A DNA stretch of 64,000 bases from Candidatus Aminicenantes bacterium (GTDB lineage: Bacteria; Acidobacteriota; Aminicenantia; Aminicenantales; Aminicenantaceae): positions 290-64,289 of the forward strand of contig QMPV01000001.1 of assembly GCA_003648765.1 (NCBI GenBank). Direction: 5' to 3'. This document shows, one piece after another, positions 2,079 to 38,302 of the stretch. Under the pieces are notes generated by a model, which was not told the DNA's origin, searched no databases, and saw only the letters and a program-made list of their open reading frames with translations. The translations under genes were made by a program, and so were the position numbers. Positions within the stretch are counted from its first letter, which is position 1. The number at the start of each line of letters is the position of its first letter.

Positions 2079-2106
2079 TTGCAAAAATATTTCAAACGTG
2101 TACAAT
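2079..2106 (+). promoter_or_regulatory. candidate sigma70 promoter for the PFOR gene (TTGCAA-16nt-TACAAT)
   Basis: TTGCAA at 2079-2084 and TACAAT at 2101-2106, about 65 nt upstream of the PFOR ATG at 2171. It lies inside the artefactual 5' extension of the long ORF. Confidence 0.3.
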
Positions 2107-2170
2107 AAAGAGTTTAATTTTTCCGACCGGTTTTTATAACCCTTCAACCCGGCCACAAAGGAGTCAAAAA

Positions 2171-5695: not shown

Positions 5696-6295
5696 CCAGA
5701 AGTTTATTGTTGTTGTTGAATCTCAGTTTTGACGAGGTGGTTTCTTCTTAAAAAAGTGGCCAATATTCTGAGCGGATATGAGCTGATAATAAAATTTCCA
5801 GGTAAGTGTGGTGTCCAACAATTGAATACCCAAGGGAGTGAAATGAGTTTTTGAAGGAGAGCCATTTTTGGACTTCTGGGGAAGAGAGAGCCTCTTTGGC
5901 TTTAATTTTGTCAGTCAGGAAGTAGATTATCTCCGCAATAATTTATTTTTTCCATAGCTCTTTCAAGACCCTCCTCTCACTCTGGCTGGAGGCGAGTTGG
6001 CTTACTTACTATGAGTCCTAGAAGAAAGCCTTTAAATCGTCCCGAGCCAACTTCTAAAAAGTACTGAAGAGTCATCTTCTCCTGAGGAGAACAGAGACTT
6101 AAAGAAGTGAGTCTAGAACTCTAGAAAAAACCTTTATTTTCGTTGCAATAAAAAACAAATTGTCTTACTATTTTACCTTATGAGCTTGAGGGGAATTAAA
6201 TCAGAATTCTTGGTGAAACAAGAAAAATTCTCTCTTTAAATTTAAATTAAATTTAAAGAAGTCCAACTCCATTTTTCGTATTAAAAGGAGGTGCA

Positions 6296-6871
6296 ATGAA
6301 GGAAACGATTGAAATAAGATGGCATGGTCGAGCCGGCCAAGGGGTAGTGACCGCAGCGGCTACTTTAGCGGATGTGGTGGCCTCGGTTGAGGGGATGTTT
6401 GTTCAGGCTTTTCCTGAATTTGGCGCAGAAAAGCGAGGAGCTCCAATTATGGCCTTTAATCGGATCAGCCGTCGGCCTATCAGGATTCATAGTCAGGTCT
6501 ATGAACCAGATATTGTGGTTGTGACTGATCCCTCCTTGATTGGAATGGTCGATTTAACCAGTGGGGCCAAACCTGACGCTCTCTATTTATTCAACACAGT
6601 CTTTGATCTCCAGGCTATTAGAAAGAAACTCAAGATCGCCGATGGTCGTGTCTTTGGCCTGGATGCTTATACTATTGCTGAAGCTGAATTAGGCCGGCCG
6701 ATTCCTAATGTCCCCATGGTCGCTGCTCTGATCAAAATAACGAATCTCATGGATTTGGATCTTTTCAAGGAGAAAATTAGAGTTTCTTTAAGCAAAAAAT
6801 TGAGACCAGAAATAGTTGAAATGAATATGAAAACCATTGATCGAGCTTTTGAGGAGGTGAAGGAAGGATGA
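6296..6871 (+). CDS. 2-oxoacid:ferredoxin oxidoreductase gamma subunit (Por/Vor/Kor family)
   Basis: 191 aa with the GRAGQGVVTAA motif typical of POR gamma. It is the first gene of a four-gene gamma-delta-alpha-beta operon and has an AAAGGAGG RBS. Confidence 0.85.
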   Translation: MKETIEIRWHGRAGQGVVTAAATLADVVASVEGMFVQAFPEFGAEKRGAPIMAFNRISRRPIRIHSQVYEPDIVVVTDPSLIGMVDLTSGAKPDALYLFNTVFDLQAIRKKLKIADGRVFGLDAYTIAEAELGRPIPNVPMVAALIKITNLMDLDLFKEKIRVSLSKKLRPEIVEMNMKTIDRAFEEVKEG

Positions 6872-7182
6872 AAAAAGAAAGCTGGCGGGAATTACCCATA
6901 GGAGGTTTGAACGTTCATCCGGGAAATTCCGTGAGCAATTTAACCGGCACTTGGCGCTCCGGGAAGCGTCCGGAATTTATTCCGGAGAACTGTATTCAAT
7001 GTTTATTTTGTTGGTTATATTGCCCCCATTTAGCCATTCAGGTTAAGGATGGCGAGGTGGTAGGAATTAATTATGATTATTGTACCGGCTGCGGTTTATG
7101 TGCTGAAGAATGTCCAGCCAAGAAGAAGGCCATCGTAATGGTTAAAGAAGAAATAGCTCTCCAAGAGGGAGGTGGACAATGA
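6868..7182 (+). CDS. 2-oxoacid:ferredoxin oxidoreductase delta subunit (2x[4Fe-4S] ferredoxin)
   Basis: 104 aa with two CxxCxxCxxxCP-type motifs (CIQCLFCWLYCP and CTGCGLCAEECP). Its start overlaps the gamma stop by 4 nt. Confidence 0.85.
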   Translation: MKKESWRELPIGGLNVHPGNSVSNLTGTWRSGKRPEFIPENCIQCLFCWLYCPHLAIQVKDGEVVGINYDYCTGCGLCAEECPAKKKAIVMVKEEIALQEGGGQ

Positions 7183-8360
7183 GGACTAAGAAAATACTCA
7201 GCGGTAATGAAGCTATCGCTGAAGCAGTCCGTCAGGTTGATCCAGACGTAATGGCTGCTTATCCCATTACGCCTTCAACTAAAATTGTCGAGACAATCGC
7301 CCAGTTTGTAGCTGACGGTCTCTTAAGTGGAGAATTCGTTTGTCCTGAGAGTGAACATAGTGCTATGAGTGTTTGTATTGGGGCAGCCGCTGCTGGAGGT
7401 CGAGTTATGACGGCCACGGCTTCCCAGGGATTAGCCCTGATGTGGGAAATGCTTTATATTGCCGCCGCCCTGCGCTTACCTATTGTCGCTGCCATTGCTA
7501 ATCGAGCTTTAAGTGCGCCGATTAATATTCATGGTGACCATTCTGATATGATGGGGGCTCGTGATTCGGGCTGGATTCAGATTTATTCTGAAAATTGTCA
7601 GGAAGCTTATGATAACTTTATTCAGGCCTTCCGGATTGCGGAACATCCTGAAGTGGCTACTCCAGTGATGGTTGGGCTGGACGGCTTTATAATCAGTCAT
7701 TCTATGGAGCCGGTCTGGGTGGAGGATGACGCCGCAGTTAAAGAATTTCTGGGTGAATATCAGCCGCATTATTCTTTGTTGGATACCAGTCGTCAGATTA
7801 CTATCGGTTCACTGGATTTTACTGATTATTATTTTGAGCATAAACGTAGTCAATTGGCAGGAATAGAGAAAGCTCCCCAAGTTATATTAGAAGTTGGCCG
7901 GGAATTTGGTCAGAAGTTTGGTCGTACCTATGGTTTTTTTGAGGAATATCGGTTAGAAGACGCCGAGGTGGCTATAATTGTTCTGAGTTCGGCCGCTGGC
8001 ACAGGCAAAGAGGCTGTAGATCGTCTCCGAGAAGAAGGCCTGCCTGTGGGTCTACTTAAGCTCCGGGTTTTCCGTCCTTTTCCCTTTAAAGAACTGGCGG
8101 AGGTTCTTAAAGATAAAAAAGCAGTAGCGGTTTTGGATCGGTGTGTCACTCCAGGGGCTGAAACTGCACCCGTAGCCACCGAAGTTAAAGCAGCTTTATT
8201 TGCTTACGAGAAACGGCCTTTCGTGGTCAATTATGTCTATGGCTTGGGAGGTCGGGACATCAAGATAGAACATTTTCAGGAAGTAGCTCGGAAGCTAATG
8301 GAGATAGCTGAAACAAACCGGGTTGAACAGCCTTTTGGCTATTTGAACCTGCGCGAGTAA
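7179..8360 (+). CDS. 2-oxoacid:ferredoxin oxidoreductase alpha subunit
   Basis: 393 aa. The N-terminus (GNEAIAEAV...AAYPITPST...) is POR-alpha domain I. Its start overlaps the delta stop by 4 nt. Confidence 0.88.
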   Translation: MRTKKILSGNEAIAEAVRQVDPDVMAAYPITPSTKIVETIAQFVADGLLSGEFVCPESEHSAMSVCIGAAAAGGRVMTATASQGLALMWEMLYIAAALRLPIVAAIANRALSAPINIHGDHSDMMGARDSGWIQIYSENCQEAYDNFIQAFRIAEHPEVATPVMVGLDGFIISHSMEPVWVEDDAAVKEFLGEYQPHYSLLDTSRQITIGSLDFTDYYFEHKRSQLAGIEKAPQVILEVGREFGQKFGRTYGFFEEYRLEDAEVAIIVLSSAAGTGKEAVDRLREEGLPVGLLKLRVFRPFPFKELAEVLKDKKAVAVLDRCVTPGAETAPVATEVKAALFAYEKRPFVVNYVYGLGGRDIKIEHFQEVARKLMEIAETNRVEQPFGYLNLRE

Positions 8361-8381
8361 GCTGGCTAAAGGAGGTAAATT

Positions 8382-9311
8382 ATGGCTCGTTTGAAAGATT
8401 TGGCCCAACAAGAAGATAGATTAGCAGCCGGACATGGGATGTGTTTGGGCTGCGGAATTCCCATAATTTTAAGAATTGTTTTGCGAGCCACCACTGACCC
8501 CTTGGTGGTGGCCAATGCCACCGGTTGCTTGGAAGTCTGTACCACCATCTTTCCCCGCACAGCCTGGAAAGTTAATTGGATTCATAGTGCTTTTGAAAAT
8601 GCGGCGGCCACTATTGCTGGAGTAGAAGCGATGTATAAAGCCTTAAAGAGAAGAGGGAAGATTCCCGCTGACCGAAAAATAAAGTTTTTAGCTATTGGTG
8701 GTGATGGGGGTACTTACGATATCGGACTCCAGTCATTATCCGGAGCTATGGAAAGAGGTCATGATATTGTCTATCTCTGTTATGATAACAATGCCTACGC
8801 CAATACAGGTGGGCAGCGTTCCTCAGCCACACCTCTGGGAGCCTCGGCTACGACTTCGCCGGCGGGCCGAGCCATTCCCGGGAAACTCCAATGGCGTAAG
8901 GATCTCACCCGAATCATGGCGGCCCATGGCCTTCCTTATGTTGCCCAGGGAAGTATTCACCGCTGGCAGGATTTATTTAAGAAAGCCCAAAAGGCCTTTG
9001 CTATTGAAGGTCCAGCTTTCCTTAATGTACTCTGTCCTTGCCCCACGGAGTGGAAATATCCTGAGTCACAAGGAGTTAAATTGGCTCGTTTGGCGGTGGA
9101 GACCTGTGCCTGGCCGCTTTATGAAGTTGAGCAGGGGAAATATCGAATTACCTATAAACCTAAGGAAAAATTGCCGGTGACTGAATGGTTGAAGCCTCAA
9201 GGAAGATTTCGTCACCTGTTTAAAGAAGAAAACGCCTGGATGTTGGAGGAAATCCAGAAAAGGATTGATGCCGAGTGGGCAGAACTCTTGCGATTGAGCC
9301 AGATAGAGTAG
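8382..9311 (+). CDS. 2-oxoacid:ferredoxin oxidoreductase beta subunit (TPP-binding)
   Basis: 309 aa with CLGCG near the N-terminus and the TPP motif GGDGGTYDIGLQSL...NNAYANTGGQ. It is the last gene of the operon. Confidence 0.88.
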   Translation: MARLKDLAQQEDRLAAGHGMCLGCGIPIILRIVLRATTDPLVVANATGCLEVCTTIFPRTAWKVNWIHSAFENAAATIAGVEAMYKALKRRGKIPADRKIKFLAIGGDGGTYDIGLQSLSGAMERGHDIVYLCYDNNAYANTGGQRSSATPLGASATTSPAGRAIPGKLQWRKDLTRIMAAHGLPYVAQGSIHRWQDLFKKAQKAFAIEGPAFLNVLCPCPTEWKYPESQGVKLARLAVETCAWPLYEVEQGKYRITYKPKEKLPVTEWLKPQGRFRHLFKEENAWMLEEIQKRIDAEWAELLRLSQIE

Positions 9312-9839
9312 GGTAGAGGAGTCTTAATCTTGGTTGAATTTTAAAATTCAATATAAGATTTATTGGTCGAGAAAGAGCGATAATCTGGAGACCCAAGAAT
9401 TCTAATTTAGGCAAAGGCGGATAGCGAAAATTCAGTTAGAAGAATTTCTTCAAATTTAGCTTTTATTTACCTGGTTTATTCATAAATTAAAAATTTGATC
9501 TAAGAACAGCCAAAAATCTTAGCGGGTGATTGGTCCAATCTTTTCTGGTTGTTTTTTCTCCCTTCTTTTTCTAACGTATTATATATCATTACTTTACGAA
9601 GGAAAAGATCTTTTTTTATGAATTATTTAGGATTTAAAAAATTCCAAGAATTTTCTCCAGACGATTTTTTAATTATTTTTTTTTCAAAAAATGTAGAAAA
9701 AAATTTGCTTTGAAATGATATCTGATATAAAATATATTAGTAATTTATTTTTAGTTAAAATGTTATTAAAAAATTACAAAAAATCCTTGAACCACCCAAT
9801 GGTGTTTGATACATTAAACAACAGAAAGGGTGGTTTGCA

Positions 9840-10541
9840 ATGAGAGAAAAGTCTATTCTAAATCTTAAGTCACTTAAGGATCAGGTTTATGAGTATCTCC
9901 GGATTCAGATGGAGAAGGGAGAATTACGACCGGGCTCTTTCGTCAATATGGAAGAGACCAGCCGTAAATTGGGCATAAGTAAAACTCCTTTAAGGGATGC
10001 CCTTCTTCAACTGGAGATGGAAAATTTTGTGACCATCATTCCCCGTCGAGGCGTGGTGGTTAACCCTTTAACTTTAAAGGACATCAAGAATTACTATGAG
10101 ATTATCGGCTCTTTGGAAAGTCAAGCTCTTTTATCTGCTTTCCGGCGCTTGAAGAAAAAAGATGTTGAAAGGATGTTGCGTTTAAATCAAGAAATGGCTG
10201 AAGCGATAGAAGAAGGAAATTTCAATCTTTATTACCAGAAAAATCTAAAATTTCATGATGTTTTTCTGAGTAAATGTGGTAACGAGATGCTTGTCCGAAT
10301 TGTGACTAATTTAAAGAAAAGACTATATGATTTTCCTCGGCAAGAAGGTTTTGTGAAAGAATGGGAGGAAACCTCCATTAAAGAGCACGCCCAGTTACTG
10401 GAACTGATTGACCAGGGTAAAAAGACCGAAGCCGTTAATTTCATTCGTGATGTCCACTGGTCATTTGATGTCCAAGAGAAGTTCATTAAGAAATACTATA
10501 AGCAAGCTTCTATATATGCGGAAAGGAGCTTTGAACGGTAG
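9840..10541 (+). CDS. GntR family transcriptional regulator (FadR/FCD-type C-terminal domain)
   Basis: 233 aa with an N-terminal winged HTH (...EETSRKLGISKTPLRDAL..LE..NFV...RRG..V) and an all-helical C-terminal domain. It is the first gene of the GRE operon. Confidence 0.8.
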   Translation: MREKSILNLKSLKDQVYEYLRIQMEKGELRPGSFVNMEETSRKLGISKTPLRDALLQLEMENFVTIIPRRGVVVNPLTLKDIKNYYEIIGSLESQALLSAFRRLKKKDVERMLRLNQEMAEAIEEGNFNLYYQKNLKFHDVFLSKCGNEMLVRIVTNLKKRLYDFPRQEGFVKEWEETSIKEHAQLLELIDQGKKTEAVNFIRDVHWSFDVQEKFIKKYYKQASIYAERSFER

Positions 10542-10546
10542 TTTAG

Positions 10547-11449
10547 ATGAAGGGTATTATTTTTGATGTCAAACGCTATGCTCTTCATGATGGCCCAGGA
10601 ATAAGAACTACAGTTTTTTTAAAAGGCTGTCCTCTCCATTGTGCTTGGTGTCACAATCCTGAAGGTATTAATCCGGCTCCGGAAATTTTTTTCCGGGAAG
10701 AAAAATGTCTTCCTGAGTGTCAGAAATGTGTGGCTGTGTGTCCTCAAAAGGCCTTACAAAAAATTTCAGGCAGATTAAATATTGACCGGGCTGCTTGTGA
10801 TGGCTGTGGTCGTTGTGGGGAGGTTTGTGTTTATGAAGCTATTGAGGTGGTTGGCCGAGAGGTGAGCTTAGAGGAACTAATGGTTGATCTAAGCAAGGAC
10901 AGTCTTTTTTTTCAAGAATCAGGGGGAGGAGTTACTTTTTCTGGTGGCGAACCTTTTTTTCAACCTGTTTTTCTCCATGAGTTACTGGTAGGGGCTAAAA
11001 AGCAGGGATGGACGACGATTGTAGATACCTCAGGTTACGTGGATTTTGCTGTCATTGAGCCGGAGTTACCTTTTATTGATTGTTTCTACTATGACTTAAA
11101 GATTATGGATGAAGAGAAACATCTTCATTGGACAGGCGTTTCCAATAAGGTAATTCTGGATAATCTGGTCAGGTTAAGCCAAAAAGGCCAGCCAGTGGTT
11201 GTCCGAGTGCCGTTAATTAAAGGCGTCAATGATGATGAGTCAAATATCCTCAATATGGTTAATTTTTTACAGAACAGGACGAAGGTCAGCGAAGTCCATC
11301 TCTTAATTTATCATTCAAATTGGACAAGTAAAGTAATTCGGCTAGGGAAGGTTATTCAGGAAGAATTTGAGTCACCGGCCCCGCCCAGAATTCAGGAGAT
11401 CAGAACCCTCCTCGAAAGGGAAGGTTTTACTGTCAAAGTCGGAGGTTAA
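10547..11449 (+). CDS. glycyl-radical enzyme activating enzyme (radical SAM, with two extra ferredoxin-like clusters)
   Basis: A radical SAM CPLHCAWC (Cx3Cx2C) motif lies near the N-terminus, plus the inserted CQKCVAVCP and CDGCGRCGEVC cluster motifs typical of the ~300-aa activases of the dehydratase/lyase class of GREs. It lies 5 nt after gntR. Confidence 0.88.
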   Translation: MKGIIFDVKRYALHDGPGIRTTVFLKGCPLHCAWCHNPEGINPAPEIFFREEKCLPECQKCVAVCPQKALQKISGRLNIDRAACDGCGRCGEVCVYEAIEVVGREVSLEELMVDLSKDSLFFQESGGGVTFSGGEPFFQPVFLHELLVGAKKQGWTTIVDTSGYVDFAVIEPELPFIDCFYYDLKIMDEEKHLHWTGVSNKVILDNLVRLSQKGQPVVVRVPLIKGVNDDESNILNMVNFLQNRTKVSEVHLLIYHSNWTSKVIRLGKVIQEEFESPAPPRIQEIRTLLEREGFTVKVGG

Positions 11450-11451
11450 GC

Positions 11452-13815
11452 ATGAAAGACCGGATAAAAAAATTGCGAGCCAAGAGTCTTCAAATTCGCC
11501 CTTACATTACCCCCGAGAGAGCTAAACTTTTAACTGAATTTTATCGACAGCCCTCAGTTTATCAGTATTCTATTCCGGTTCAACGGGCCTTGGCTTTTAA
11601 ATGTATTTTGGAGAACAAAGAAATCTTTATTGATGAGGGGGAACTTATTGTTGGTGAACGGGGACCCGCCCCCAAGGCTACTCCCACTTATCCCGAAGTA
11701 ACTTGTCATTCTCTGGAGGACTTGGATGTGCTCAATAACCGAGAAAAATTGCCTTATCGAGTCGATGAATCTACCCGGCGGCTTTACCAGGAAGAAATAA
11801 TTCCTTTCTGGCGAGGTCGAGCCATTCGGGATATCATTTTTCGAGAAATGGACCCAGAGTGGGTGGCTGCTTATGAGGCTGGGGTGTTTACAGAATTTAT
11901 GGAACAGCGAGCTCCTGGGCACACGGTGCTGGGAGATAAAATCTATCGCCAAGGATTATTGGATTTTAAAAAAGAGATAGAAGCCACCATAGCTCGATTG
12001 GATTTTCTTCGGGATCCCGAAGCTTACGCCAAGAGAGAAGAATTAAAAGCGATGTCCATTTGTGCTGAGGCTCTAATGATTTATGCCCAGCGTCATGCCC
12101 AAAAGGCTCGGGAAATGGCGGCCCAAGAGAGTAATCCTGAACGACGGAAGGAGTTGCTCCAAATAGCCGCCATTTGTGAGCATGTTCCCGCCCGGGCTCC
12201 TCGTAATTTCTGGGAGGCGCTTCAGTATTACTGGTTTGTTCATTTAGGAGTAATTATTGAGTTTAATACTTGGGATTCCTTTAATCCAGGTCGATTAGAC
12301 CAGCACCTTTATCCTTTCTATCAGCAGGGACTGGCCAGTGGTGAGTTAACTAGGGAAAGAGCTAAGGAACTTCTTCAAGCTTTCTGGATAAAATTTAATA
12401 ATCAACCGGCTCCTCCCAAAGTGGGAGTAACTGCCCAAGAGAGCGGCACTTATACAGACTTTGCCTTGATTAATACAGGAGGAGTAAAAGTCGATGGTTC
12501 AGATGCGGTGAACGAACTCTCATTTCTGATACTGGATGTGGTTGAGGAGATGAGGCTAGTGCAGCCTAGTTCAATGGTCCAAATCAGTCAAAAAACACCA
12601 GATGCTTTTCTGAAAAGAGCCTTAAAAATTATCCGGACTGGTTTTGGTCAGCCCTCGGTGTTTAATACCGATGCTATTATTCAGGAATTGGTCCGTCAAG
12701 GTAAAAGCTTGGAAGACGCCCGTCTAGGTGGAGCCAGTGGTTGTGTGGAAGCCGGGGCCTTTGGAAAAGAAGCCTATATATTAACCGGCTATTTTAATCT
12801 GACCAAAGTGCTGGAGATAACTCTGAACAATGGGCTTGATCCTCGAACTGGTCGGAAGATTGGTTTATCCACAGGAGATCCTACTAGCTGGCGGACGTTT
12901 GATGATCTTTATCAAGCTTTTGAGCGGCAATTGAATTATTTTGTTGAGATTAAAATAAAGGGAAATAATATTATCGAGAGACTTTATGCCCATTATCTAC
13001 CAGCCCCCTTTCTCTCCCTCTTTATCGATGATTGCTTACAACGCGGTCGAGACTATCATAATGGAGGAGCTCGGTATAATACTTCTTATATTCAAGGAGT
13101 AGGCATTGGGACCATAACTGATTCACTGGCCTCCATCAAGTACAATGTTTTTGACCAAAAGCTGGTCACGATGAAGGAGTTACTCGCTGCTCTTGAACAT
13201 AATTATGAGGGGTATGAGGAATTACGGCAGCGTTTTCTTAATAAGACACCTAAATACGGTAATGATGATGATTATGCAGATTCGATAACTCGACAGGTTT
13301 TCGAGTCCTATTTTCGGGCGGTGGACGGTCGTCCCAATACTCGCGGAGGGGCCCATCGTATTAATCTTTTACCCACCACCGTGCATATTTACTTCGGACA
13401 GGTGTGTCAGGCGACACCCGATGGACGACGAGCTGGCGAGCCTCTTTCTGAGGGAATATCGCCGGTTCAGGGAGCTGACCGTCATGGCCCCACGGCTGTG
13501 ATCAAATCAGCGGCCAAGATTGATCATTTGAGAACCGGAGGCACCTTGCTTAATCAGAAATTTACTCCTTCTTTATTGGCTGAAGATGAAGGGCTGGACA
13601 AACTGGCTAAGCTCATCAGAACTTACTTTAGACTCGATGGACACCATGTGCAATTTAATGTAGTGACAGCCAAAATCTTGCGTGAAGCTCAACGGCATCC
13701 CGAAAAATATCGAGACCTCATTGTTCGGGTGGCTGGTTACAGCGATTATTTTGTTGACTTGCCCAAAAAACTTCAGGATGAAATAATTAAGCGAACCGAA
13801 CATCAGTCTTTTTAG
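11452..13815 (+). CDS. glycyl radical enzyme, Cys/Glu eliminase class (glycerol dehydratase / hydroxyproline dehydratase / CutC-like); substrate not determinable by eye
   Basis: 787 aa. The C-terminal glycyl radical motif IVRVAGYSDYF is present. The active-site loop GGASGCVEAG is of Cys-x-Glu type, not the Cys-Cys of pyruvate formate-lyase. The start is 2 nt after the activase stop. Confidence 0.88.
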   Translation: MKDRIKKLRAKSLQIRPYITPERAKLLTEFYRQPSVYQYSIPVQRALAFKCILENKEIFIDEGELIVGERGPAPKATPTYPEVTCHSLEDLDVLNNREKLPYRVDESTRRLYQEEIIPFWRGRAIRDIIFREMDPEWVAAYEAGVFTEFMEQRAPGHTVLGDKIYRQGLLDFKKEIEATIARLDFLRDPEAYAKREELKAMSICAEALMIYAQRHAQKAREMAAQESNPERRKELLQIAAICEHVPARAPRNFWEALQYYWFVHLGVIIEFNTWDSFNPGRLDQHLYPFYQQGLASGELTRERAKELLQAFWIKFNNQPAPPKVGVTAQESGTYTDFALINTGGVKVDGSDAVNELSFLILDVVEEMRLVQPSSMVQISQKTPDAFLKRALKIIRTGFGQPSVFNTDAIIQELVRQGKSLEDARLGGASGCVEAGAFGKEAYILTGYFNLTKVLEITLNNGLDPRTGRKIGLSTGDPTSWRTFDDLYQAFERQLNYFVEIKIKGNNIIERLYAHYLPAPFLSLFIDDCLQRGRDYHNGGARYNTSYIQGVGIGTITDSLASIKYNVFDQKLVTMKELLAALEHNYEGYEELRQRFLNKTPKYGNDDDYADSITRQVFESYFRAVDGRPNTRGGAHRINLLPTTVHIYFGQVCQATPDGRRAGEPLSEGISPVQGADRHGPTAVIKSAAKIDHLRTGGTLLNQKFTPSLLAEDEGLDKLAKLIRTYFRLDGHHVQFNVVTAKILREAQRHPEKYRDLIVRVAGYSDYFVDLPKKLQDEIIKRTEHQSF

Positions 13816-13866
13816 CTGAATTTATTGAAAAAATTTATTATGATTTAATTTTAAAAGAAAGGAGTC

Positions 13867-15261
13867 ATGATGTTTAGTGATAAGATTTATCAACAGAGAA
13901 GGCAAAGATTGAAAGAGTTATTACCCGGAGGAATAGCTCTCTTTCTGGGTAATGAAGAGAGTGCGATGAATTATCCGGCCAATCCGTATCCTTTCCGCCA
14001 GGACAGCTCGTTTCTTTATTTTTTCGGTCTAGATAGTCCTTCATTAGTGGGGGTGGTGGATGTTGATGAAGGTCAGGATGTCCTTTTTGGTCATGAAGTC
14101 ACGATGGAAGATATTATCTGGATGGGAGATCTTCCCTCTTTGAGCGACCGCGGCCGGCAGGTGGGTATCGACACTACTTATTCTTTAACTGAACTGCCTT
14201 CTTTTCTCGACAAGGCTATCAAGGCTGGGCGGCGAATTCATTTTCTGCCTCCTTATCGGGCAGAGACCACTCAGAAATTAAGTGAATTATTGGGTCTTCA
14301 CCCCTCTTTTGTCCAGAAGTATGTTTCGACAGATTTAATAAAAGCTGTGGTGGCTTTAAGATCGATTAAAGGACCCGAAGAAATAGCCGAAATGGAGAAA
14401 GCTCATGAGATTACCTATCGCATGTATGAGGAGGCGATGGCTTTGGCTCGGCCAGGAAGATATGAGAGAGATTTGGCCGGTCGCATGGAAGGAATTTGTG
14501 CTGAAGCAGGCTGTCTCCTGGCTTTTCCCATTATTTTAACAATTAATGGACAGATACTTCATAATCATTACCACGGTAATGAGCTTGTGGAGAATCGACT
14601 TCTGGTGATTGATGCGGGAGCAGAATCACCAGCTCATTATGCGGCTGACATCACCCGAACTGTGCCTGTTGGAGGTCGATTTACCCCGCGCCAAAGGGAA
14701 ATTTATTCGATCGTCCTCCGAGCTCAGGAAGAGGCGATAGCTATGATGAAGCCGGGAATATACTTTCGGGATGTTCACCTCCAGGCAGCTCAGGTGATTG
14801 CCGAGGGATTGAAAGAGTTGGGGCTAATGAAGGGCTCGCCCACGGCAGCGGTTGAGGCAGGAGCCCATGCGCTTTTCTTTCCTCATGGTTTAGGACACAT
14901 GATTGGCCTGGATGTCCACGATATGGAGGGATTAGGCGAAGATTTCGTCGGGTATGATGAAAGAGTTAAACGCAGTGATCAATTCGGTCTGGCCTATCTG
15001 CGTATGGCTAAAAAACTAGAGCCCAATTATGTTTTAACTGTTGAGCCTGGTATTTACTTTATTCCGGCTTTGATTGAACAGTGGGCCGAAGAAAAGAAAC
15101 ATCTGGATTTTATTGATTATGATCGGGTCAGAGAATATATGGATTTTGGCGGAGTCCGGATTGAGGATGATGTTCAGATTACGGAAAATGGCCACCGAGT
15201 TCTGGGAAAATCGATCCCCAAAAAAATTGAAGAAGTCGAAGCAGTGACAGCCACCAAATAA
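13867..15261 (+). CDS. Xaa-Pro aminopeptidase / prolidase-type M24B metallopeptidase
   Basis: 464 aa. It has an N-terminal creatinase/prolidase domain and a C-terminal pita-bread fold with metal ligands (DITRT, HGLGHMIGLDVHD, VEPGIYF). It lies 51 nt after the GRE gene, with an RBS and no intervening terminator. Confidence 0.85.
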   Translation: MMFSDKIYQQRRQRLKELLPGGIALFLGNEESAMNYPANPYPFRQDSSFLYFFGLDSPSLVGVVDVDEGQDVLFGHEVTMEDIIWMGDLPSLSDRGRQVGIDTTYSLTELPSFLDKAIKAGRRIHFLPPYRAETTQKLSELLGLHPSFVQKYVSTDLIKAVVALRSIKGPEEIAEMEKAHEITYRMYEEAMALARPGRYERDLAGRMEGICAEAGCLLAFPIILTINGQILHNHYHGNELVENRLLVIDAGAESPAHYAADITRTVPVGGRFTPRQREIYSIVLRAQEEAIAMMKPGIYFRDVHLQAAQVIAEGLKELGLMKGSPTAAVEAGAHALFFPHGLGHMIGLDVHDMEGLGEDFVGYDERVKRSDQFGLAYLRMAKKLEPNYVLTVEPGIYFIPALIEQWAEEKKHLDFIDYDRVREYMDFGGVRIEDDVQITENGHRVLGKSIPKKIEEVEAVTATK

Positions 15262-15355
15262 TTAGCGAGGTGAGTTAGCAGCGTTTTCTTTTCTTCTGGG
15301 CTTTTATCCTGCGCGAGGAAAATTGCCTTTAGTTGGGAAAAAAATCACCCATATG

Positions 15356-15384
15356 GAAAGTGAAGCCAGGTCTTCACTTTTCAC
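15356..15384 (+). terminator. candidate intrinsic terminator downstream of the GRE-pepP operon
   Basis: An AAGTGAAG-ccaggt-CTTCACTT hairpin is followed by TTTTCAC, about 95 nt after the pepP stop. Confidence 0.3.
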
Positions 15385-15742
15385 AAATCAACTAACCTCT
15401 ATCGTCATCGAGGGGGAGCAAGTCTTCATATTCACTTTTGAGAAAAAACTTTTTGTGCCTTCCCCCATGGGCTGCTCTCGAAACACATTCCCTCCATTAG
15501 GGGCTTCGCTTTATCCCCTAAAATAGTCAACAAGAAAGGGGAAGAAGAACAAATTTCAAGCAAACCAAAAATTACTTCGGTCAGCTTTCCCTAAATTCAG
15601 GTCAAAGGTAAAAGGTGAAGTTTCTGACCCCAAATATGAACAAATTTCAAATTTCTGGTTATTCTTGATTATTTATTAATCCAAATAATCTCAAATAAAG
15701 AGACTTTCTCTCTTGGAAAAAGGGAGGCTTTCCCAATGGGAA

Positions 15743-17065
15743 TCAATCAGAAGAAGGGAGGGGGCCAATTTCTAGGCGGAACCGGTTGCCGGGGGAAAGA
15801 ACTTTCTGGATGAATGCGTTAAAATCGCCAAGGTTAAGCTCATCAAAATAGATCAATAATTCTTCAAGAAATTCAGCTCCCAGACCGGTCGCTTCAAAAG
15901 TCGCGAGATAAGTGGCCCGAGAGTTTTTCTCTTGGCATTGGCGAAGAAGGGAAGCTTTAGTGTAAGCTTTTGTCATGGCCAACTCGGCTTCGCTCAAAGG
16001 TTGCTTCAGCAGATGGTCGATTTCCCTTTCCAGAGACTGCCAGGCGATGTCTCTTTTCTTCGGAGATGTTTCTAGGTAGATCTCCAGTATTCCTCCTGCC
16101 TGGTAAAGATGTACTTCTGACTGAATATCATAGGCTAATTTTTCATATTCTCTTAATTTCCAAAGACGTGAAGCCACTCCCTTACCCAGAAGGTTATCCA
16201 GGAGAAGACTGAAGGCGGTAATTTTTGGCGTGAGAGGAGGTAAGCGATAAGCTAGGTAGAGAAGCAGTTCTTGGCTTTTGCGGGTCAGCTTTTTTTCTTG
16301 TTCTTCCAAGGGAGGGAAGGTTAAAGGCGTCAACTCCAGGGGTTTTCCCGGAGGAAATTTACCCAATTGTTCTTCTAAAAGGGGTAGTAATGACCCCAGG
16401 TCTTTGTCGGAGATGACCACAGCTACCATATTCGCGGCCGTGAAAAAAGATTTATAATATTTCTCAATATCTTTTTTGCTGATATTTTTCAGAGTTTTCT
16501 CTGAGCCGAAACTGGAAGTGCCGTAACCAGTGGAACCGAAGAGAAAGGCGTGGGCTTCTTCTCGAGCCAGATTGGAGGCTTGGTCGGACAGTCTTTTCTT
16601 GGAGCGAAGCATACTTTTTTTTATTCGGTTAATGCGGAGTCCGGAGAAAAGAGGTTTTCTCATGAGATTAATTATGAGTTTGAGAGTCTCAGCGAAATGA
16701 GGTGAAAGACTAGCGAGTCGGATAAGATTGTAGTCGGGAAGGGTGGAGAAAGTTAATTGAGAAGCTTGAGTCATTAGCTGTCTAAGCTTATTTTGATCAG
16801 TGATTTCTAAACTAAGACGAGTAGTCAAATAGCCCAGGCCAGCTTTACCCTGAGGTTCTCCTCGCCGACCACCTTTAATCGTTAGAATAAGAATAGTTAA
16901 GGGAGAAGAAGAATCCTGTTGATAAATGAGCGGCAGACCATTTTTTAAAACTCGTCTTTGGAGAGGGGGAAAAAAAGATTGAGCGGCAAGCCAGTTCCCA
17001 GTGCCTATTAGCCAACTGAGATTTAATCCGAGCCATAGGGCCAAATGTTTTTTTAAAGAGCGCAT
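15743..17065 (-). CDS. M16 (pitrilysin) family peptidase, probable non-catalytic partner subunit, secreted
   Basis: 440 aa with an N-terminal signal peptide and the M16 fold, but no HxxEH motif. It lies immediately downstream of the HxxEH-containing M16 gene, as in the two-subunit PqqL/YmxG arrangement. Confidence 0.7.
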   Translation of the reverse strand: MRSLKKHLALWLGLNLSWLIGTGNWLAAQSFFPPLQRRVLKNGLPLIYQQDSSSPLTILILTIKGGRRGEPQGKAGLGYLTTRLSLEITDQNKLRQLMTQASQLTFSTLPDYNLIRLASLSPHFAETLKLIINLMRKPLFSGLRINRIKKSMLRSKKRLSDQASNLAREEAHAFLFGSTGYGTSSFGSEKTLKNISKKDIEKYYKSFFTAANMVAVVISDKDLGSLLPLLEEQLGKFPPGKPLELTPLTFPPLEEQEKKLTRKSQELLLYLAYRLPPLTPKITAFSLLLDNLLGKGVASRLWKLREYEKLAYDIQSEVHLYQAGGILEIYLETSPKKRDIAWQSLEREIDHLLKQPLSEAELAMTKAYTKASLLRQCQEKNSRATYLATFEATGLGAEFLEELLIYFDELNLGDFNAFIQKVLSPGNRFRLEIGPLPSSD

Positions 17066-17066
17066 T

Positions 17067-18449
17067 TTATTTTTCTTTGTTTAAAGGAGTAATTCTGACC
17101 ACAACATATTTGCCCTTGCTTAGATATTTCCCGGCTGCTCCCCGTAAATCAGAGGAGCTGATCTTTTTTATTAACTCTAAATAATTCCCTCTTTCTTTTT
17201 GCTGATTGAGGAGGTAATAGCGGACTAAAGCTCTGGCCAGAGTTAAGCCGTTTTCCTGAGCTTGATAAGTGCGAAAGCAAATTTGATTCTTTGCCTGCTG
17301 AAGGAAATCAAAAACAAAGAGTTGAGCTTCACCGTAATAGTCATCTGGGGAGAAATTCTGGCGGCGAAGTGTTTTTAGAAACCGGATTGTCTCTCGTTCA
17401 GCTCTTTTAGTATTTTTAGGGTCGAGAGTGAGGGTGATAATCATAGCCCCGCCGTAATAAAGTGAGGTATAGGTCATCGTAACTGTATAGGCTAATTCTC
17501 GACGTCCCCGGAGAACCTGATTGAGGAGCGGATTAAGACCGCGCCCGAGAATTTCAGTCAGAACGTCAATGGCATATTGGTCAGGATGGTTGAAATCGGG
17601 AGCTGAAAATCCCAAAAAAAGATAAGCCTGATTGACATCCAAGCTATGGCTGACCTCGATTTTTTCCTTCAAGGGAGGGGCAGGGGCAAGAGAAGGCGGC
17701 GAAAAGTGAGCATTACTGAGGGATGAAAATATTTGAGTTATTTTTTCTTGACTCCAGTTGAGATCGATTGGGCCAACTACAGCTAAAGCTGCATTTTGCG
17801 GGCAAAAAAAACGCTGGTAAAAGGCAGTTATTTTTTCTACAGTTATTTGAGCCAGGCTTTCTGGCGTTCCATAAATAGGCTGGCTGTAAGGATGGGAAGG
17901 AAAGAGATGTTGGAAAGTAAGGGAAGTTCCGTAGCGGAGAGGGTCGTCTTGGATAAAACTGATTTCTTCTAGGATAACCTGTTTTTCTTTTTCCAAGGAG
18001 GCCGGGTCAAAGGTTAACTCGAAAGCCAAGGCTTTAAGACACTTTAGAGCGAACAAGTAATTACCCGCCGGGAGGGTGATTTCAATAAGCATTAAATCCC
18101 GGCCGGTGTGAGCGTTATAATAGCCGCCTTTTTCTCGAATAGCTAAACTCAGATTTTTCCCGTTGAGTCGATGGGGATTGCGGAAAAGGAGGTAATGCTC
18201 TAAGAGATGCGTTAATCCAGAAGTTTCCCTGGTTTCATTTTTAGAACCTACATTGAAGCCCAGCACGAGATGAATTAAAGGTAGGTGGTTTTGCTGGAGG
18301 AGAGCTACCTGCAACCCATTTTCCAAAGTGAATTTCTCGGATTGGGTCGGGGCTGAAGTAGGCTTAATTGAAGAGAGAGAAAGAAGGGTTAAAACGCCAC
18401 TCACAACTAACAAGAAAAACAATTGATTATGATTTGAGGATTTAATCAT
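17067..18449 (-). CDS. M16 family zinc peptidase (catalytic, inverted zincin HxxEH)
   Basis: An HLLEH zinc-binding motif (GLTHLLEHYLLF). The likely start is the ATG at 18449 (MIKSS... with a hydrophobic signal/anchor), which overlaps the upstream K+ channel stop by 8 nt. The ORF-track start at 18596 is an upstream extension into the channel gene. Confidence 0.8.
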   Translation of the reverse strand: MIKSSNHNQLFFLLVVSGVLTLLSLSSIKPTSAPTQSEKFTLENGLQVALLQQNHLPLIHLVLGFNVGSKNETRETSGLTHLLEHYLLFRNPHRLNGKNLSLAIREKGGYYNAHTGRDLMLIEITLPAGNYLFALKCLKALAFELTFDPASLEKEKQVILEEISFIQDDPLRYGTSLTFQHLFPSHPYSQPIYGTPESLAQITVEKITAFYQRFFCPQNAALAVVGPIDLNWSQEKITQIFSSLSNAHFSPPSLAPAPPLKEKIEVSHSLDVNQAYLFLGFSAPDFNHPDQYAIDVLTEILGRGLNPLLNQVLRGRRELAYTVTMTYTSLYYGGAMIITLTLDPKNTKRAERETIRFLKTLRRQNFSPDDYYGEAQLFVFDFLQQAKNQICFRTYQAQENGLTLARALVRYYLLNQQKERGNYLELIKKISSSDLRGAAGKYLSKGKYVVVRITPLNKEK

Positions 18450-19443
18450 TATGTTCCGGATTAAGATAATTTTTTTGGAAAAGGTCGATTGATTGGGTAT
18501 CCCCCATGACCAACAGGGTGTCGCCGGGGTGGATCTTTGTTCCAGGATCGGGATTAAAGACAATATCTTGGCCGGGTTTTTTGATGGCCACGACAATTAC
18601 ATTCGCTTTCTTCCTTAAATCGCATTCGACAATTGTTTTATTGTTAATCCGGGCTTTTTTGCTAACCACAAATTCATCCATATAAAGAGATAATTCTTTT
18701 CGGCGAATAATCAGGTCCATAAAGTCAACTAAAGTTGGTCGGATTAATCCTTGGGCGATCTTTAAACCACTAAGTTTATAAGGATTAACTACACGGTTGG
18801 CTCCTATTTGGAGAATTTTTTTCTCACCTTCTTCATCTAAGGCTTTAGAGAGAACAAAAATAGATGGATTAAGGAGTTTGGCGGTGAAACTCAGGTAGAG
18901 ATTATTCGCATCACTGGGTAGAAGAGCGGCCAAAGCCTTAGCTTTTTTTACTTTGGCTTTAAGGAGGACTTCTTCTTGAGTGGCGTCACCCAGAATATAA
19001 AGACAGTTGTTTTGGTTAGCCAAGTCTTTTAGGGATTCTTCATTTTTTTCAATAACTACATAGGGCAGATTTTCTTCCTCTAGTCTTTCGCGGACAATTT
19101 TCCCCATGCGGCCATGGCCGCAAATTATATAATGATCCTTTAAATTCTGGATGTCTTTTTGCATTTTTTTTCTCCGAAAATATTGATGGAAGCCTCCTTC
19201 ATAAACGGCTTCGCCGATCTTTGTTAAGGCGAAGATAGCTGTGCCCACTCCACCGAGGATGATGAAGATAGTAAAGATTTGTCCTCCAGGGGTTAGAGGT
19301 TCTTTAACTTCCCGGAAACCCACCGTGGTAATGGTGATGATGGTCATATAAAGAGAATCGAGGAAAGCCAAGTTTTCAATGAGGTGATAGCCGATAGTAC
19401 CAATTAGAATCACCAGGAGGATTAAGACAATTGGCTTCCACAT
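18442..19443 (-). CDS. potassium channel with two-TM pore and RCK/TrkA-N plus TrkA-C domains
   Basis: 333 aa with an N-terminal TM-pore-TM containing a TTVGF selectivity-filter-like motif, then a Rossmann GHGRMG (GxGxxG) RCK domain and a TrkA-C-like C-terminus. Confidence 0.8.
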   Translation of the reverse strand: MWKPIVLILLVILIGTIGYHLIENLAFLDSLYMTIITITTVGFREVKEPLTPGGQIFTIFIILGGVGTAIFALTKIGEAVYEGGFHQYFRRKKMQKDIQNLKDHYIICGHGRMGKIVRERLEEENLPYVVIEKNEESLKDLANQNNCLYILGDATQEEVLLKAKVKKAKALAALLPSDANNLYLSFTAKLLNPSIFVLSKALDEEGEKKILQIGANRVVNPYKLSGLKIAQGLIRPTLVDFMDLIIRRKELSLYMDEFVVSKKARINNKTIVECDLRKKANVIVVAIKKPGQDIVFNPDPGTKIHPGDTLLVMGDTQSIDLFQKNYLNPEHND

Positions 19444-24990: not shown

Positions 24991-24991
24991 T

Positions 24992-26893: not shown

Positions 26894-26894
26894 C

Positions 26895-38300: not shown

Positions 38301-38302
38301 TT

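What the first reader, a model, noticed from the sequence alone, without database searches (positions are those of the whole stretch)
9780..15390. GntR-regulated glycyl-radical-enzyme operon ending in a prolidase-type peptidase: candidate peptide-linked (hydroxy)proline GRE pathway
Four genes are tightly packed on one strand with gaps of 5, 2 and 51 nt, and no terminator appears before 15356. They are a GntR/FCD regulator, a GRE activase with extra Fe-S clusters, a 787-aa GRE carrying a Cys-x-Glu (GCVE) active-site loop (the eliminase/dehydratase class, not pyruvate formate-lyase), and an M24B Xaa-Pro aminopeptidase. Established knowledge: Cys/Glu-class GREs include glycerol dehydratase, choline TMA-lyase and trans-4-hydroxy-L-proline dehydratase (HypD, about 789 aa), and M24B enzymes release Pro/Hyp from peptides. 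Inference: coupling a prolidase to a GRE suggests the GRE substrate is Hyp/Pro or a related cyclic amino acid derived from peptides. That would be an operonic link I cannot recall being described, and the substrate cannot be fixed by eye.
Basis: partly seen in the sequence, partly recalled or inferred. Interest (0 to 1): 0.7.

Follow-up and report, generated by a model that had tools for sequence, protein, structure and literature searches.

The report
Hydroxyproline dehydratase operon with prolidase-like peptidase
This is an ordinary member of a known enzyme family, the oxygen-free hydroxyproline dehydratase HypD, in an uncultured sediment-type bacterium, but it sits in an operon with a human-prolidase-like peptidase and a regulator, which offers a testable candidate for how anaerobes free hydroxyproline from collagen-type peptides.

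Summary
Four same-strand genes lie at 9840-15261 with gaps of 5, 2 and 51 nt. They encode a GntR/FCD regulator, a three-cluster GRE activase, a 787-aa GRE with a GCVE loop, and an M24B peptidase.

The GRE is trans-4-hydroxy-L-proline dehydratase (HypD). It scores 1320 bits against the NCBIfam equivalog (cut-off 1100) and is 57.6% identical to crystallised C. difficile HypD. All 15 published active-site residues are conserved. The host is an Aminicenantes bacterium.

The peptidase resembles human prolidase more than E. coli PepP. It keeps the five metal ligands and the dipeptide-selecting arginine.

The HypD-peptidase link recurs but is facultative:
- 9 of 65 evaluable HypD loci, from several phyla, have the orthologous peptidase directly downstream.
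- M24B is the commonest HypD neighbour after the activase.
- Only 4 of 59 assessable loci of this peptidase family are HypD-linked.
- No residues are specific to the linked peptidases.

Relatives add cis-3- and trans-3-hydroxyproline dehydratase-type genes, a second M24B and DPP-IV at the same locus. A conserved 24-bp palindrome marks the promoter.

No P5C-consuming enzyme is in the window. I found no paper describing this link.

Verdict: a known enzyme in a modestly new operon context.

The parts
9710..9738 (+). Best sigma-70-like promoter match (TTGAAA-17-TATATT), about 100 nt upstream of gntR
   Evidence: 10 of 12 matches. This is a consensus match only. Promoter-like sites are only mildly enriched in the region (19 found, 12.2 expected).
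9716..9739 (.). Candidate operator: a degenerate copy (TGATATCTGATATAAAATATATTA) of a 24-bp palindrome (consensus TGATATCTAATATATTAGATATCA) conserved in related loci. It overlaps the promoter-like site.
   Evidence: The motif occurs exactly once per locus. It lies just upstream of gntR in L001, L002, L005, L016 and L054, and just upstream of the activase in L007 and L010. There are no other hits at 5 or fewer mismatches in 1.42 Mb. The window copy has 5 mismatches, and only its left half-site is well kept.
9840..10541 (+). GntR-family regulator of the FadR subfamily with an FCD effector domain (HypR-like by analogy)
   Evidence: Pfam GntR 46 bits and FCD 71 bits. No NCBIfam equivalog passes its cut-off. 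The protein has exactly three His residues (H139, H183, H206), spaced like the FCD metal site of S. coelicolor HypR (H142/H186/H208). Orthologues of 58-70% identity lie upstream of HypD loci L001, L002, L005, L016 and L054.
10547..11449 (+). HypD-activating enzyme: a radical SAM GRE activase with two auxiliary [4Fe-4S] motifs
   Evidence: The best NCBIfam hit is the trans-4-hydroxy-L-proline dehydratase activase model, at 346 bits against a cut-off of 425. It passes the generic GRE activase model TIGR02494 (330 bits against 174). Cysteine motifs are shown.
11452..13815 (+). HypD, trans-4-hydroxy-L-proline dehydratase (glycyl radical enzyme)
   Evidence: NF043068 scores 1320 bits against a cut-off of 1100. 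PDB 6vxc scores 1099 bits at 57.6% identity. The window residues F149, R153, H157, W274, D275, K323, S331, D336, F337, C431, V432, E433, Y447, T642 and G762 equal C. difficile F152, R156, H160, W277, D278, K326, S334, D339, F340, C434, V435, E436, Y450, T645 and G765.
13870..15261 (+). M24B Xaa-Pro peptidase, prolidase-like (the ORF opens at 13867; the likely start is 13870; the RBS AGGAG is at 13860-13864)
   Evidence: Pfam AMP_N + Peptidase_M24. The best solved relative is human prolidase at 213 bits, against 186 bits for E. coli PepP. D249, D261, H344, E393 and E433 are the metal ligands. H232, H351 and R379 (equivalent to human R398 and PepQ R370) are invariant in 94 family members. Neither the PepP nor the PepQ equivalog cut-off is reached.
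15354..15383 (+). 12-bp hairpin after the operon: a possible weak terminator without a U-tract
   Evidence: fold of 15262-15400, z = -2.2. The terminator scan did not call it.
15743..18596 (-). Context only: a convergent pair of M16 (insulinase-type) peptidase genes. They are syntenic with the M24B gene in Aminicenantes whether or not HypD is present.
   Evidence: Synteny is seen in L001-L004, L006, L086, L088 and L091.

Best explanation
This is a four-gene catabolic operon of an Aminicenantes bacterium that channels peptide-bound trans-4-hydroxy-L-proline into central proline/glutamate metabolism without oxygen.

Proposed steps:
1. The cytosolic, prolidase-like M24B metallopeptidase hydrolyses Xaa-Hyp (and Xaa-Pro) dipeptides left over from collagen- or hydroxyproline-rich-glycoprotein-derived peptides. 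This releases free Hyp. (Inferred.)
2. The radical-SAM activase installs a glycyl radical on Gly762 of HypD. (Family-level knowledge.)
3. HypD dehydrates Hyp to delta-1-pyrroline-5-carboxylate, using Cys431 and the Asp275/His157/Glu433/Asp336 network. (Enzyme identity is shown by sequence; activity is inferred.)
4. P5C is reduced to proline or oxidised to glutamate by enzymes encoded outside this window. (Unknown.)
5. The GntR/FCD protein represses its own operon. It binds a palindromic operator that overlaps the promoter and is released by Hyp or a related metabolite. This is analogous to the HypR repressors of aerobic Hyp catabolism. (Inferred.)
For: HypD identity:
- It passes the equivalog HMM cut-off.
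- It is 57.6% identical to crystallised HypD, and all 15 mutagenesis- or structure-defined residues are conserved.
- NCBI already names near-identical Acidobacteriota proteins HypD.

Operon structure:
- Gaps of 5, 2 and 51-54 nt, an RBS before the peptidase, and no hairpin in the spacer.

Peptidase type:
- The closest solved relative is human prolidase.
- All metal ligands are present, plus the Arg that blocks peptides longer than two residues.

Linkage:
- An orthologous M24B (50-68% identity) lies 12-737 nt downstream, on the same strand, in 9 of 65 evaluable HypD loci. These come from Aminicenantes, Calditrichaceae, Ignavibacteriales and Bacteroidota MAGs, and also from L001 and L002.
- The GREs in those loci also pass the HypD cut-off.
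- M24 + AMP_N is the top family among 103 same-strand neighbours, with 10 members against 4 or fewer for any other family.
- Linked peptidases fall in at least 5 branches interleaved with unlinked ones.

The locus theme is hydroxyproline:
- Relatives insert a cis-3-hydroxy-L-proline dehydratase (524 bits against a cut-off of 500) and a second M24B upstream of gntR.
- Others place trans-3-Hyp-dehydratase-like, OCD-family and DPP-IV genes beside the module.
- In L003, the gntR-M24B pair sits with those genes instead of HypD.

Regulation:
- The 24-bp palindrome is found only in front of gntR or the activase.
- GntR/FCD HypR repressors are a precedent, and the S. coelicolor regulon even includes a collagenase.
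Against: - The link is facultative. 56 of 65 evaluable HypD loci lack the peptidase.
- Only 4 of 59 assessable loci of this peptidase family are HypD-linked.
- No residues are specific to the linked peptidases, so nothing indicates a Hyp-specialised enzyme.
- In Aminicenantes, the M24B-M16-M16 block exists without HypD or GntR (L086, L088, L091). The HypD module may simply have inserted next to it.
- Spacers of 150-740 nt in L001, L002, L012 and L049 allow a separate promoter for the peptidase.
- The window's operator copy is degenerate, with 5 of 24 mismatches.
- There is no transporter and no P5C reductase or dehydrogenase in the 64-kb window.
- The activase falls below the HypD-AE equivalog cut-off.
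- Nothing was tested biochemically.
Confidence: 0.65

Rival explanations
1. The GRE is HypD, but the peptidase is a general housekeeping prolidase or aminopeptidase P. Its adjacency is a by-product of synteny: a gntR-activase-hypD cassette landed upstream of a conserved M24B-M16-M16 block, and the peptidase is expressed and used independently of Hyp catabolism.
For: - M24B-M16-M16 occurs without HypD in L003, L086, L088 and L091.
- Most family members are unlinked: 55 unlinked against 4 linked in the metagenome set.
- No residues are specific to the linked peptidases.
- Spacers are long in some relatives.
Against: - HypD-M24B adjacency also occurs in Calditrichaceae, Ignavibacteriales, Bacteroidota and unclassified MAGs that lack the M16 block and gntR.
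- M24B is the top neighbour family.
- In L003, gntR-M24B travels with other hydroxyproline genes.
- In the window, the spacer is 51-54 nt, with an RBS and no terminator.
- From general knowledge, a genome has about 1-3 M24B genes among several thousand genes. Chance adjacency would therefore give well under 1 locus in 65 (inference).
Confidence: 0.25
2. The GRE acts on a different substrate from free trans-4-hydroxy-L-proline, for example another hydroxyproline isomer, trans-4-hydroxy-D-proline (HplG-type C-N lyase), or Hyp still in a dipeptide. In that case the peptidase would act after the GRE rather than before it.
For: - Activity was not measured.
- The activase scores below the HypD-AE equivalog cut-off.
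- Neighbouring loci in relatives encode enzymes for several Hyp isomers.
Against: - All residues that bind the Hyp carboxylate (S331, Y447, T642), the amine (D275, D336) and the ring (F337) are conserved. A peptide-bound Hyp would lack the free amine.
- The HplG structure scores 447 bits against 1099 for HypD.
- The equivalog cut-off is exceeded by 220 bits.
Confidence: 0.05
3. The M24 protein is not a peptidase here. It would be a non-peptide amidohydrolase of the same fold, such as a creatinase or an ectoine-hydrolase-like enzyme, acting on a cyclic imino-acid derivative.
For: The M24 fold hosts such enzymes. No PepP or PepQ equivalog cut-off is reached.
Against: - The full-length best matches are human prolidase and E. 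coli PepP.
- All five metal ligands, both substrate His residues and the carboxylate-binding Arg are conserved.
- The window peptidase's NCBIfam list holds only peptidase models, with no ectoine-hydrolase or creatinase model.
Confidence: 0.03

Closest known systems
Clostridioides difficile HypD / HypD-AE / ProC cluster (trans-4-hydroxy-L-proline dehydratase; Levin et al. 2017; Huang et al. 2018, PMC6219649; Backman et al. 2020, PMC7077986)
   Same: - Same enzyme family, at 57.6% identity.
- Identical Cys loop (GCVE), identical glycyl radical site, and all Hyp-binding and catalytic residues.
- The activase is encoded adjacently and has auxiliary Fe-S clusters.
   Different: - Gene order is activase then hypD.
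- No proC (P5C reductase) next to it or anywhere in the 64-kb window.
- P5CR families are not among those matched by two or more of the 103 close neighbours in the survey.
- The operon instead carries a substrate-supplying peptidase and a GntR/FCD regulator.
- The host is an environmental Aminicenantes bacterium rather than a gut Firmicute.
Human prolidase PEPD and E. coli PepQ (M24B Xaa-Pro dipeptidases)
   Same: - AMP_N + pita-bread catalytic domain.
- Five dinuclear-metal ligands.
- His255 and His377 equivalents.
- The Arg398/R370 equivalent, which binds the dipeptide C-terminus and excludes longer peptides.
   Different: - The alignment with human prolidase is long (residues 16-461) but scores only 213 bits; I did not compute a percent identity.
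- It scores below the NCBIfam PepQ cut-off (182 against 339) and the PepP cut-off (205 against 465).
- Specificity for dipeptide against oligopeptide, and for Hyp against Pro, is untested.
HypR, the GntR/FadR-subfamily repressors of aerobic hydroxyproline catabolism (S. meliloti; Proteobacteria, PMC5343134; S. coelicolor, PMC6608401)
   Same: - wHTH GntR domain plus an FCD domain with three His residues at matching spacing.
- Encoded at the head of a Hyp catabolic cluster.
- A likely autoregulatory operator at its own promoter.
- In S. coelicolor the regulon also includes a collagen-degrading peptidase.
   Different: - Orthology was not tested.
- The operator differs: a 24-bp AT-rich palindrome here, against CTNTGC(A/C)ATGTCAC or TKGT/ACMA-type sites.
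- It controls the anaerobic radical pathway rather than the epimerase/oxidase/deaminase pathway.
HplG (trans-4-hydroxy-D-proline C-N lyase GRE, PDB 7vua) and other GRE eliminases (glycerol dehydratase, CutC, propanediol dehydratase)
   Same: GRE fold, the CxE loop, and activation by a radical SAM enzyme.
   Different: Scores are much lower: 447-564 bits against 1099 for HypD. The HypD-specific Asp, Ser, Tyr and Thr residues are present instead of the Phe-rich pockets of the other eliminases.

Membership tests
HypD (trans-4-hydroxy-L-proline dehydratase, NCBIfam NF043068) | Whole-protein score above the curated equivalog cut-off | tested here: met
   1320 bits against a cut-off of 1100. The next specific models reach at most 589 bits against cut-offs of 1000 or more.
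HypD (trans-4-hydroxy-L-proline dehydratase, NCBIfam NF043068) | Glycyl radical site and the Cys-x-Glu loop of GRE eliminases | tested here: met
   G762 lies in RVAGYS. C431-V432-E433 align to C. difficile C434-V435-E436 and G765. Pfam Gly_radical scores 129 bits.
HypD (trans-4-hydroxy-L-proline dehydratase, NCBIfam NF043068) | HypD-specific substrate and catalytic residues (His160, Asp278, Asp339, Ser334, Phe340, Tyr450, Thr645, plus Phe152, Trp277, Arg156, Lys326) | tested here: met
   All are identical in the pairwise alignment to 6vxc. The residue roles are taken from PMC7077986.
HypD (trans-4-hydroxy-L-proline dehydratase, NCBIfam NF043068) | Cognate activase (HypD-AE equivalog NF043069) | tested here: inconclusive
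   An adjacent activase is present with the right motifs. NF043069 is its best hit, at 346 bits against a cut-off of 425. It passes only the generic GRE activase model.
HypD (trans-4-hydroxy-L-proline dehydratase, NCBIfam NF043068) | Catalysis of Hyp to P5C | not testable with these tools
   This needs anaerobic reconstitution.
Clostridial hypD-proC gene cluster | P5C reductase gene adjacent to hypD | tested here: not met
   No P5CR or P5C dehydrogenase domain appears in any annotated ORF of the window. P5CR families are not among those matched by two or more of 103 neighbours in related loci.
Prolidase (Xaa-Pro dipeptidase; PEPD/PepQ type of M24B) | Pita-bread M24 domain with five metal ligands (Asp, Asp, His, Glu, Glu) | tested here: met
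   D249, D261, H344, E393 and E433 align to human D276, D287, H370, E412 and E452. They are invariant in 94 homologues.
Prolidase (Xaa-Pro dipeptidase; PEPD/PepQ type of M24B) | Active-site Arg on the prolidase-specific loop that binds the dipeptide carboxylate (human R398, PepQ R370) | tested here: met
   R379 aligns with human R398 in the HMMER alignment and is invariant. This rests on sequence alignment only; I modelled no structure.
Prolidase (Xaa-Pro dipeptidase; PEPD/PepQ type of M24B) | Score above a curated PepQ equivalog cut-off, or above the PepP cut-off for the alternative assignment | tested here: not met
   PepQ NF010133 scores 182 bits against 339. PepP NF008131 scores 205 bits against 465. 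The protein is filed only as an M24B, prolidase-like peptidase.
Prolidase (Xaa-Pro dipeptidase; PEPD/PepQ type of M24B) | Hydrolysis of Xaa-Pro or Xaa-Hyp dipeptides but not longer peptides | not testable with these tools
   This needs an enzyme assay.
GntR family, FadR subfamily (FCD), HypR-like | N-terminal GntR wHTH plus a C-terminal FCD domain | tested here: met
   PF00392 scores 46 bits and PF07729 scores 71 bits, both above cut-off.
GntR family, FadR subfamily (FCD), HypR-like | Three-His metal site in the FCD domain | tested here: inconclusive
   The protein has only three His residues (139, 183, 206). Their spacing matches S. coelicolor HypR (142, 186, 208). I made no alignment to HypR or TM0439.
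GntR family, FadR subfamily (FCD), HypR-like | Orthology to characterised HypR and response to Hyp | not tested
   No HypR model exists in the libraries used. The best NCBIfam hit is PhnR, at 86 bits against a cut-off of 271.

The most novel reading that the evidence does not exclude
The HypD-linked M24B enzyme is the missing 'hydroxyprolidase' of anaerobes. It would release free Hyp from Xaa-Hyp dipeptides such as Pro-Hyp and Gly-Hyp, which host peptidases handle poorly. With the GntR/FCD sensor it would form a self-contained peptide-to-P5C module. In Aminicenantes this module would be the core of a larger island covering cis-3-, trans-3- and trans-4-hydroxyproline. That would mark this uncultured phylum as a specialist degrader of collagen- or hydroxyproline-rich-glycoprotein-derived peptides in anoxic sediments.
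Probability: 0.3. Interest if true: 0.5.

Novelty: new variant of a known kind. Interest (0 to 1): 0.35.

Why it matters
HypD is one of the most abundant glycyl radical enzymes in anoxic microbiomes. Its discoverers stated that the enzymes releasing free Hyp from collagen or plant glycoproteins remain to be identified (PMC6219649).

This operon and its relatives nominate a concrete, easily expressed candidate: a 463-aa prolidase-like M24B. They also nominate a candidate Hyp-responsive regulator with a defined operator.

The survey shows a further point. In environmental lineages close to this one, HypD's usual partner is a proline-specific peptidase rather than the P5C reductase that led to its discovery in Clostridia.

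The enzyme chemistry itself is not new, and public annotation pipelines already name these proteins correctly.

Tried and rejected
1. I looked for residues distinguishing HypD-linked from unlinked M24B proteins. Only two weakly biased, non-active-site columns appeared. There is no evidence of a Hyp-specialised subfamily.

2. I looked in the window for a P5C reductase, P5C dehydrogenase, proline reductase or a dedicated transporter. None is among the 45 ORFs annotated with Pfam.

3. I looked for remnants of the cis-3-Hyp dehydratase, second M24B, Pro_racemase, OCD or DPP-IV genes of relatives, both in the 528-nt spacer at 9312-9839 and elsewhere. There are none.

4. An Rfam scan of 9200-15800 for a riboswitch or leader found only a meaningless sub-threshold snoRNA hit.

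5. In the consensus scans, terminator-like sites are no commoner than in shuffled sequence, and promoter-like sites are only mildly enriched. They were used only as weak support.

6. MAFFT first aligned the relatives' operator to window 9803-9826. A mismatch-tolerant search placed the better match at 9716-9739.

7. I did not run structure prediction or docking. A 57.6%-identical crystal structure with all contact residues conserved makes them uninformative.

8. I considered glycerol dehydratase, CutC, propanediol dehydratase and HplG assignments and rejected them on scores and residues.

Full report
**Observation**

The gaps are 5, 2 and 51 nt.

Pfam gives these domains:
- GntR + FCD for the regulator.
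- Fer4_12, a Fer4 dicluster and Radical_SAM for the activase.
- PFL-like + Gly_radical for the GRE.
- AMP_N + Peptidase_M24 for the peptidase.

The activase carries CX3CX2C at C28/C32/C35 and two Cys4 ferredoxin motifs. The GRE has the GCVE loop (C431, E433) and the radical glycine G762.

The HypD-peptidase spacer holds an AGGAG box and no hairpin. The second ATG (13870) is the better start. That gives 463 aa, as in the identical database protein and its orthologues.

A 12-bp hairpin lies at 15354-15383 and lacks a U-tail. Consensus terminator sites are no commoner than in shuffles.

**What the GRE is**

The protein scores 1320 bits on the NCBIfam equivalog for trans-4-hydroxy-L-proline dehydratase, against a cut-off of 1100. 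Every other specific GRE model falls far below its own cut-off.

Against solved structures, C. difficile HypD (6vxc) scores 1099 bits. Glycerol dehydratase scores 564, CutC about 519 and HplG 447.

Over 781 aligned positions it is 57.6% identical to 6vxc. All residues that Backman et al. (PMC7077986) define as binding or catalytic are identical: F152, R156, H160, W277, D278, K326, S334, D339, F340, C434, V435, E436, Y450, T645 and G765.

Related proteins of 73-100% identity come from Aminicenantes/Acidobacteriota MAGs. NCBI already names some of them trans-4-hydroxy-L-proline dehydratase. The enzyme identity is therefore settled by sequence, and it is not new.

**The peptidase**

Its best solved relative is human prolidase at 213 bits, ahead of E. 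coli aminopeptidase P at 186 bits.

The five metal ligands are D249, D261, H344, E393 and E433. The two substrate histidines are also present. R379 aligns with human R398 and PepQ R370. That arginine binds the dipeptide carboxylate and sterically excludes longer peptides (PMC4213023). All of these residues are invariant in 94 family members.

It reaches neither the PepQ nor the PepP equivalog cut-off. I therefore file it only as a prolidase-like M24B. The N-terminus shows no obvious signal peptide by eye; I ran no prediction tool.

**Is the HypD-peptidase link real?**

*Close relatives.* Two Aminicenantes genomes keep gntR-activase-hypD-M24B followed by the convergent M16 pair (L001, L002). 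A third keeps gntR-M24B-M16-M16 without HypD. There it is flanked by a Pro_racemase-family gene, an OCD-family gene and a DPP-IV gene (L003).

*Survey from the HypD side.* I scanned one genome per species and kept the best 80 of at least 587 relatives. These are 64-75% identical and span many bacterial and archaeal phyla. Of the 80, 65 have at least 1.5 kb downstream of hypD. Of those 65, 9 carry an orthologous M24B (50-68% identity) 12-737 nt downstream on the same strand. By record title these loci are Aminicenantes, Calditrichaceae, Ignavibacteriales, Bacteroidetes and unclassified MAGs. Their GREs also pass the HypD cut-off.

*Neighbour tally.* Among 103 same-strand genes within two positions of hypD, M24 + AMP_N is the commonest family with 10 members. 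EamA and ABC transporters follow with 4 each, then MFS and GntR/FCD with 3 each. No P5C reductase family was matched by two or more neighbours.

*Chance expectation.* A genome usually has only a few M24B genes among thousands of genes (general knowledge). Chance adjacency would therefore give far fewer than one locus in 65. The loci are not phylogenetically independent, however.

*Survey from the peptidase side.* Of 80 metagenomic loci of this peptidase family (50-67% identity), only 4 are HypD-linked, 55 are clearly not, and the rest are too short upstream to judge. Three Aminicenantes-type loci keep M24B-M16-M16 with neither HypD nor GntR.

*Tree and signature residues.* In a rough NJ tree, the linked peptidases fall in at least five branches interleaved with unlinked ones. 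No residues are specific to the linked group.

*Conclusion on the link.* The association is recurrent and far above chance, but it is facultative. The peptidase looks like a general prolidase-type enzyme that has repeatedly been placed, or kept, next to HypD. It does not look like a dedicated new subfamily.

**Locus theme**

In L001 and L002, the gene directly upstream of gntR passes the equivalog cut-off for cis-3-hydroxy-L-proline dehydratase (524 bits against 500). L001 adds a second, PepP-like M24B.

The Pro_racemase-family neighbours in L054, L003 and L047 score best as trans-3-hydroxy-L-proline dehydratase, although below cut-off. They are accompanied by OCD-family genes, which are candidates for pyrroline-2-carboxylate reductase. 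DPP-IV genes occur in L003, L049, L029 and L080.

So the variable neighbourhood is dominated by hydroxyproline-isomer enzymes and proline-specific peptidases. This supports a functional rather than accidental role for the gntR and M24B genes. The window carries only the four-gene core, with no remnants of the accessory genes.

**Regulation**

A 24-bp AT-rich palindrome (consensus TGATATCTAATATATTAGATATCA) occurs once per locus:
- Immediately upstream of gntR in L001, L002, L005, L016 and L054.
- Immediately upstream of the activase in L007 and L010, which have no adjacent gntR.
- Nowhere else at 5 or fewer mismatches in 1.42 Mb.

The window's copy at 9716-9739 has 5 mismatches. It overlaps the best promoter-like site at 9710-9738.

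GntR/FadR-FCD repressors named HypR control aerobic Hyp catabolism in S. meliloti, many Proteobacteria and S. coelicolor. In S. coelicolor the regulon includes a collagenase. The window regulator has exactly three histidines, spaced like the HypR metal site. Repression at the promoter relieved by a Hyp-related ligand is the likeliest mechanism, but this is inferred.

**Gaps**

- No P5C reductase, P5C dehydrogenase, proline reductase or obvious Hyp or peptide transporter lies in the 64-kb window. The fate of P5C and the uptake route are unknown.
- The survey covers only the HypD lineages closest to this one.
- Taxon labels are those of the MAG records.
- My gene calls in the loci are simple longest-ORF calls.

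**Literature**

In the searchable library, the only described genomic partner of hypD is proC, in Clostridia. Huang et al. [quoted passage not shown] Searches combining HypD or hydroxyproline dehydratase with prolidase, peptidase, Xaa-Pro, aminopeptidase P or Aminicenantes returned nothing describing this operon. Subscription-only papers are not covered.

**Verdict**

This is a bona fide HypD operon: a known enzyme in a new host lineage. Its gene context differs from the canonical one. It has a HypR-like GntR/FCD regulator with a conserved operator and a prolidase-like peptidase where Clostridia have proC.

The novelty is modest: a new variant of a known kind. Its main value is that it nominates testable candidates for the peptide-to-Hyp step and for Hyp sensing in anaerobes.

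Noticed in passing
L001:3195-5742; L002:3398-4501: In two related Aminicenantes genomes, a cis-3-hydroxy-L-proline dehydratase (NCBIfam 524 bits against a cut-off of 500) sits between the Por operon and gntR. L001 also has a second PepP-like M24B there. This makes the locus a multi-isomer hydroxyproline island. The window lacks both genes.
   Followed up: partly
L003:1519-11392 (= L004); L054:8516-10037: In L003, gntR-M24B occurs without HypD. It sits next to a trans-3-Hyp-dehydratase-like Pro_racemase gene, an OCD-family gene, a DPP-IV gene, a radical SAM/SPASM gene and a fused serine-dehydratase-like gene. L054 has gntR-activase-hypD-M24B followed by Pro_racemase and OCD genes.
   Followed up: partly
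L007:9060-9083; L010:9048-9071: The 24-bp palindrome is retained directly upstream of the activase-hypD pair in loci that have no adjacent gntR. This implies a regulator encoded elsewhere in those genomes.
   Followed up: no
L047:5290-15309 (Desulfosporosinus sp. FKB): Two GRE/activase pairs lie in tandem. One is HypD (66% identity). The other is a GRE only 36% identical that passes no specific equivalog model. Beside them are a trans-3-Hyp-dehydratase-like gene and an OCD-family gene. The second GRE may be another hydroxyproline-related GRE, possibly of HplG type.
   Followed up: partly
L043, L056, L074, L082 (Promethearchaeota/Hermodarchaeota MAGs): Asgard-archaeal HypD loci (66-67% identity) show no tblastn-detectable activase next to hypD. 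They share a different conserved neighbourhood that includes a Beta_elim_lyase gene.
   Followed up: no
window 1979-9311: Two 2-oxoacid:ferredoxin oxidoreductases lie in tandem: a fused 1238-aa PFOR and a four-subunit PorC/D/A/B set. They sit immediately upstream of the HypD operon. The same arrangement is syntenic in L001, L002, L006 and L009.
   Followed up: no
window 17067-18596 (-) and 18442-19443 (-): The 509-aa M16 ORF starts at a TTG and overlaps the upstream K+ channel/TrkA gene by 155 nt. The gene calls for its orthologues are 419-471 aa, so the true start is probably further downstream.
   Followed up: no
window 33210-41276: This cluster encodes hydantoinase/oxoprolinase A and B subunits, an Nramp transporter, an Asp/Glu/hydantoin racemase, a class I/II aminotransferase and a RidA-family protein. 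It may be a cyclic-amide or 5-oxoproline pathway.
   Followed up: no
window 41948-45232; 59906-61357; 53543-55015: Further peptidase-type genes are present: a 1094-aa tricorn-like protease (PD40 repeats, Tricorn C1/PDZ, S41), an M20 peptidase and a beta-lactamase-family protein. These fit a peptide-degrading lifestyle.
   Followed up: no
window 31991-33178; 45300-48537; 51135-53459; 57934-58761: Five sizeable ORFs (395, 441, 640, 774 and 275 aa) have no Pfam match at E <= 1e-5.
   Followed up: no
window 22001-28000: AT skew rises to about +0.22 over the minus-strand Proton_antipo/Oxidored_q3 (Mrp/Nuo-like) operon, against about 0 elsewhere.
   Followed up: no
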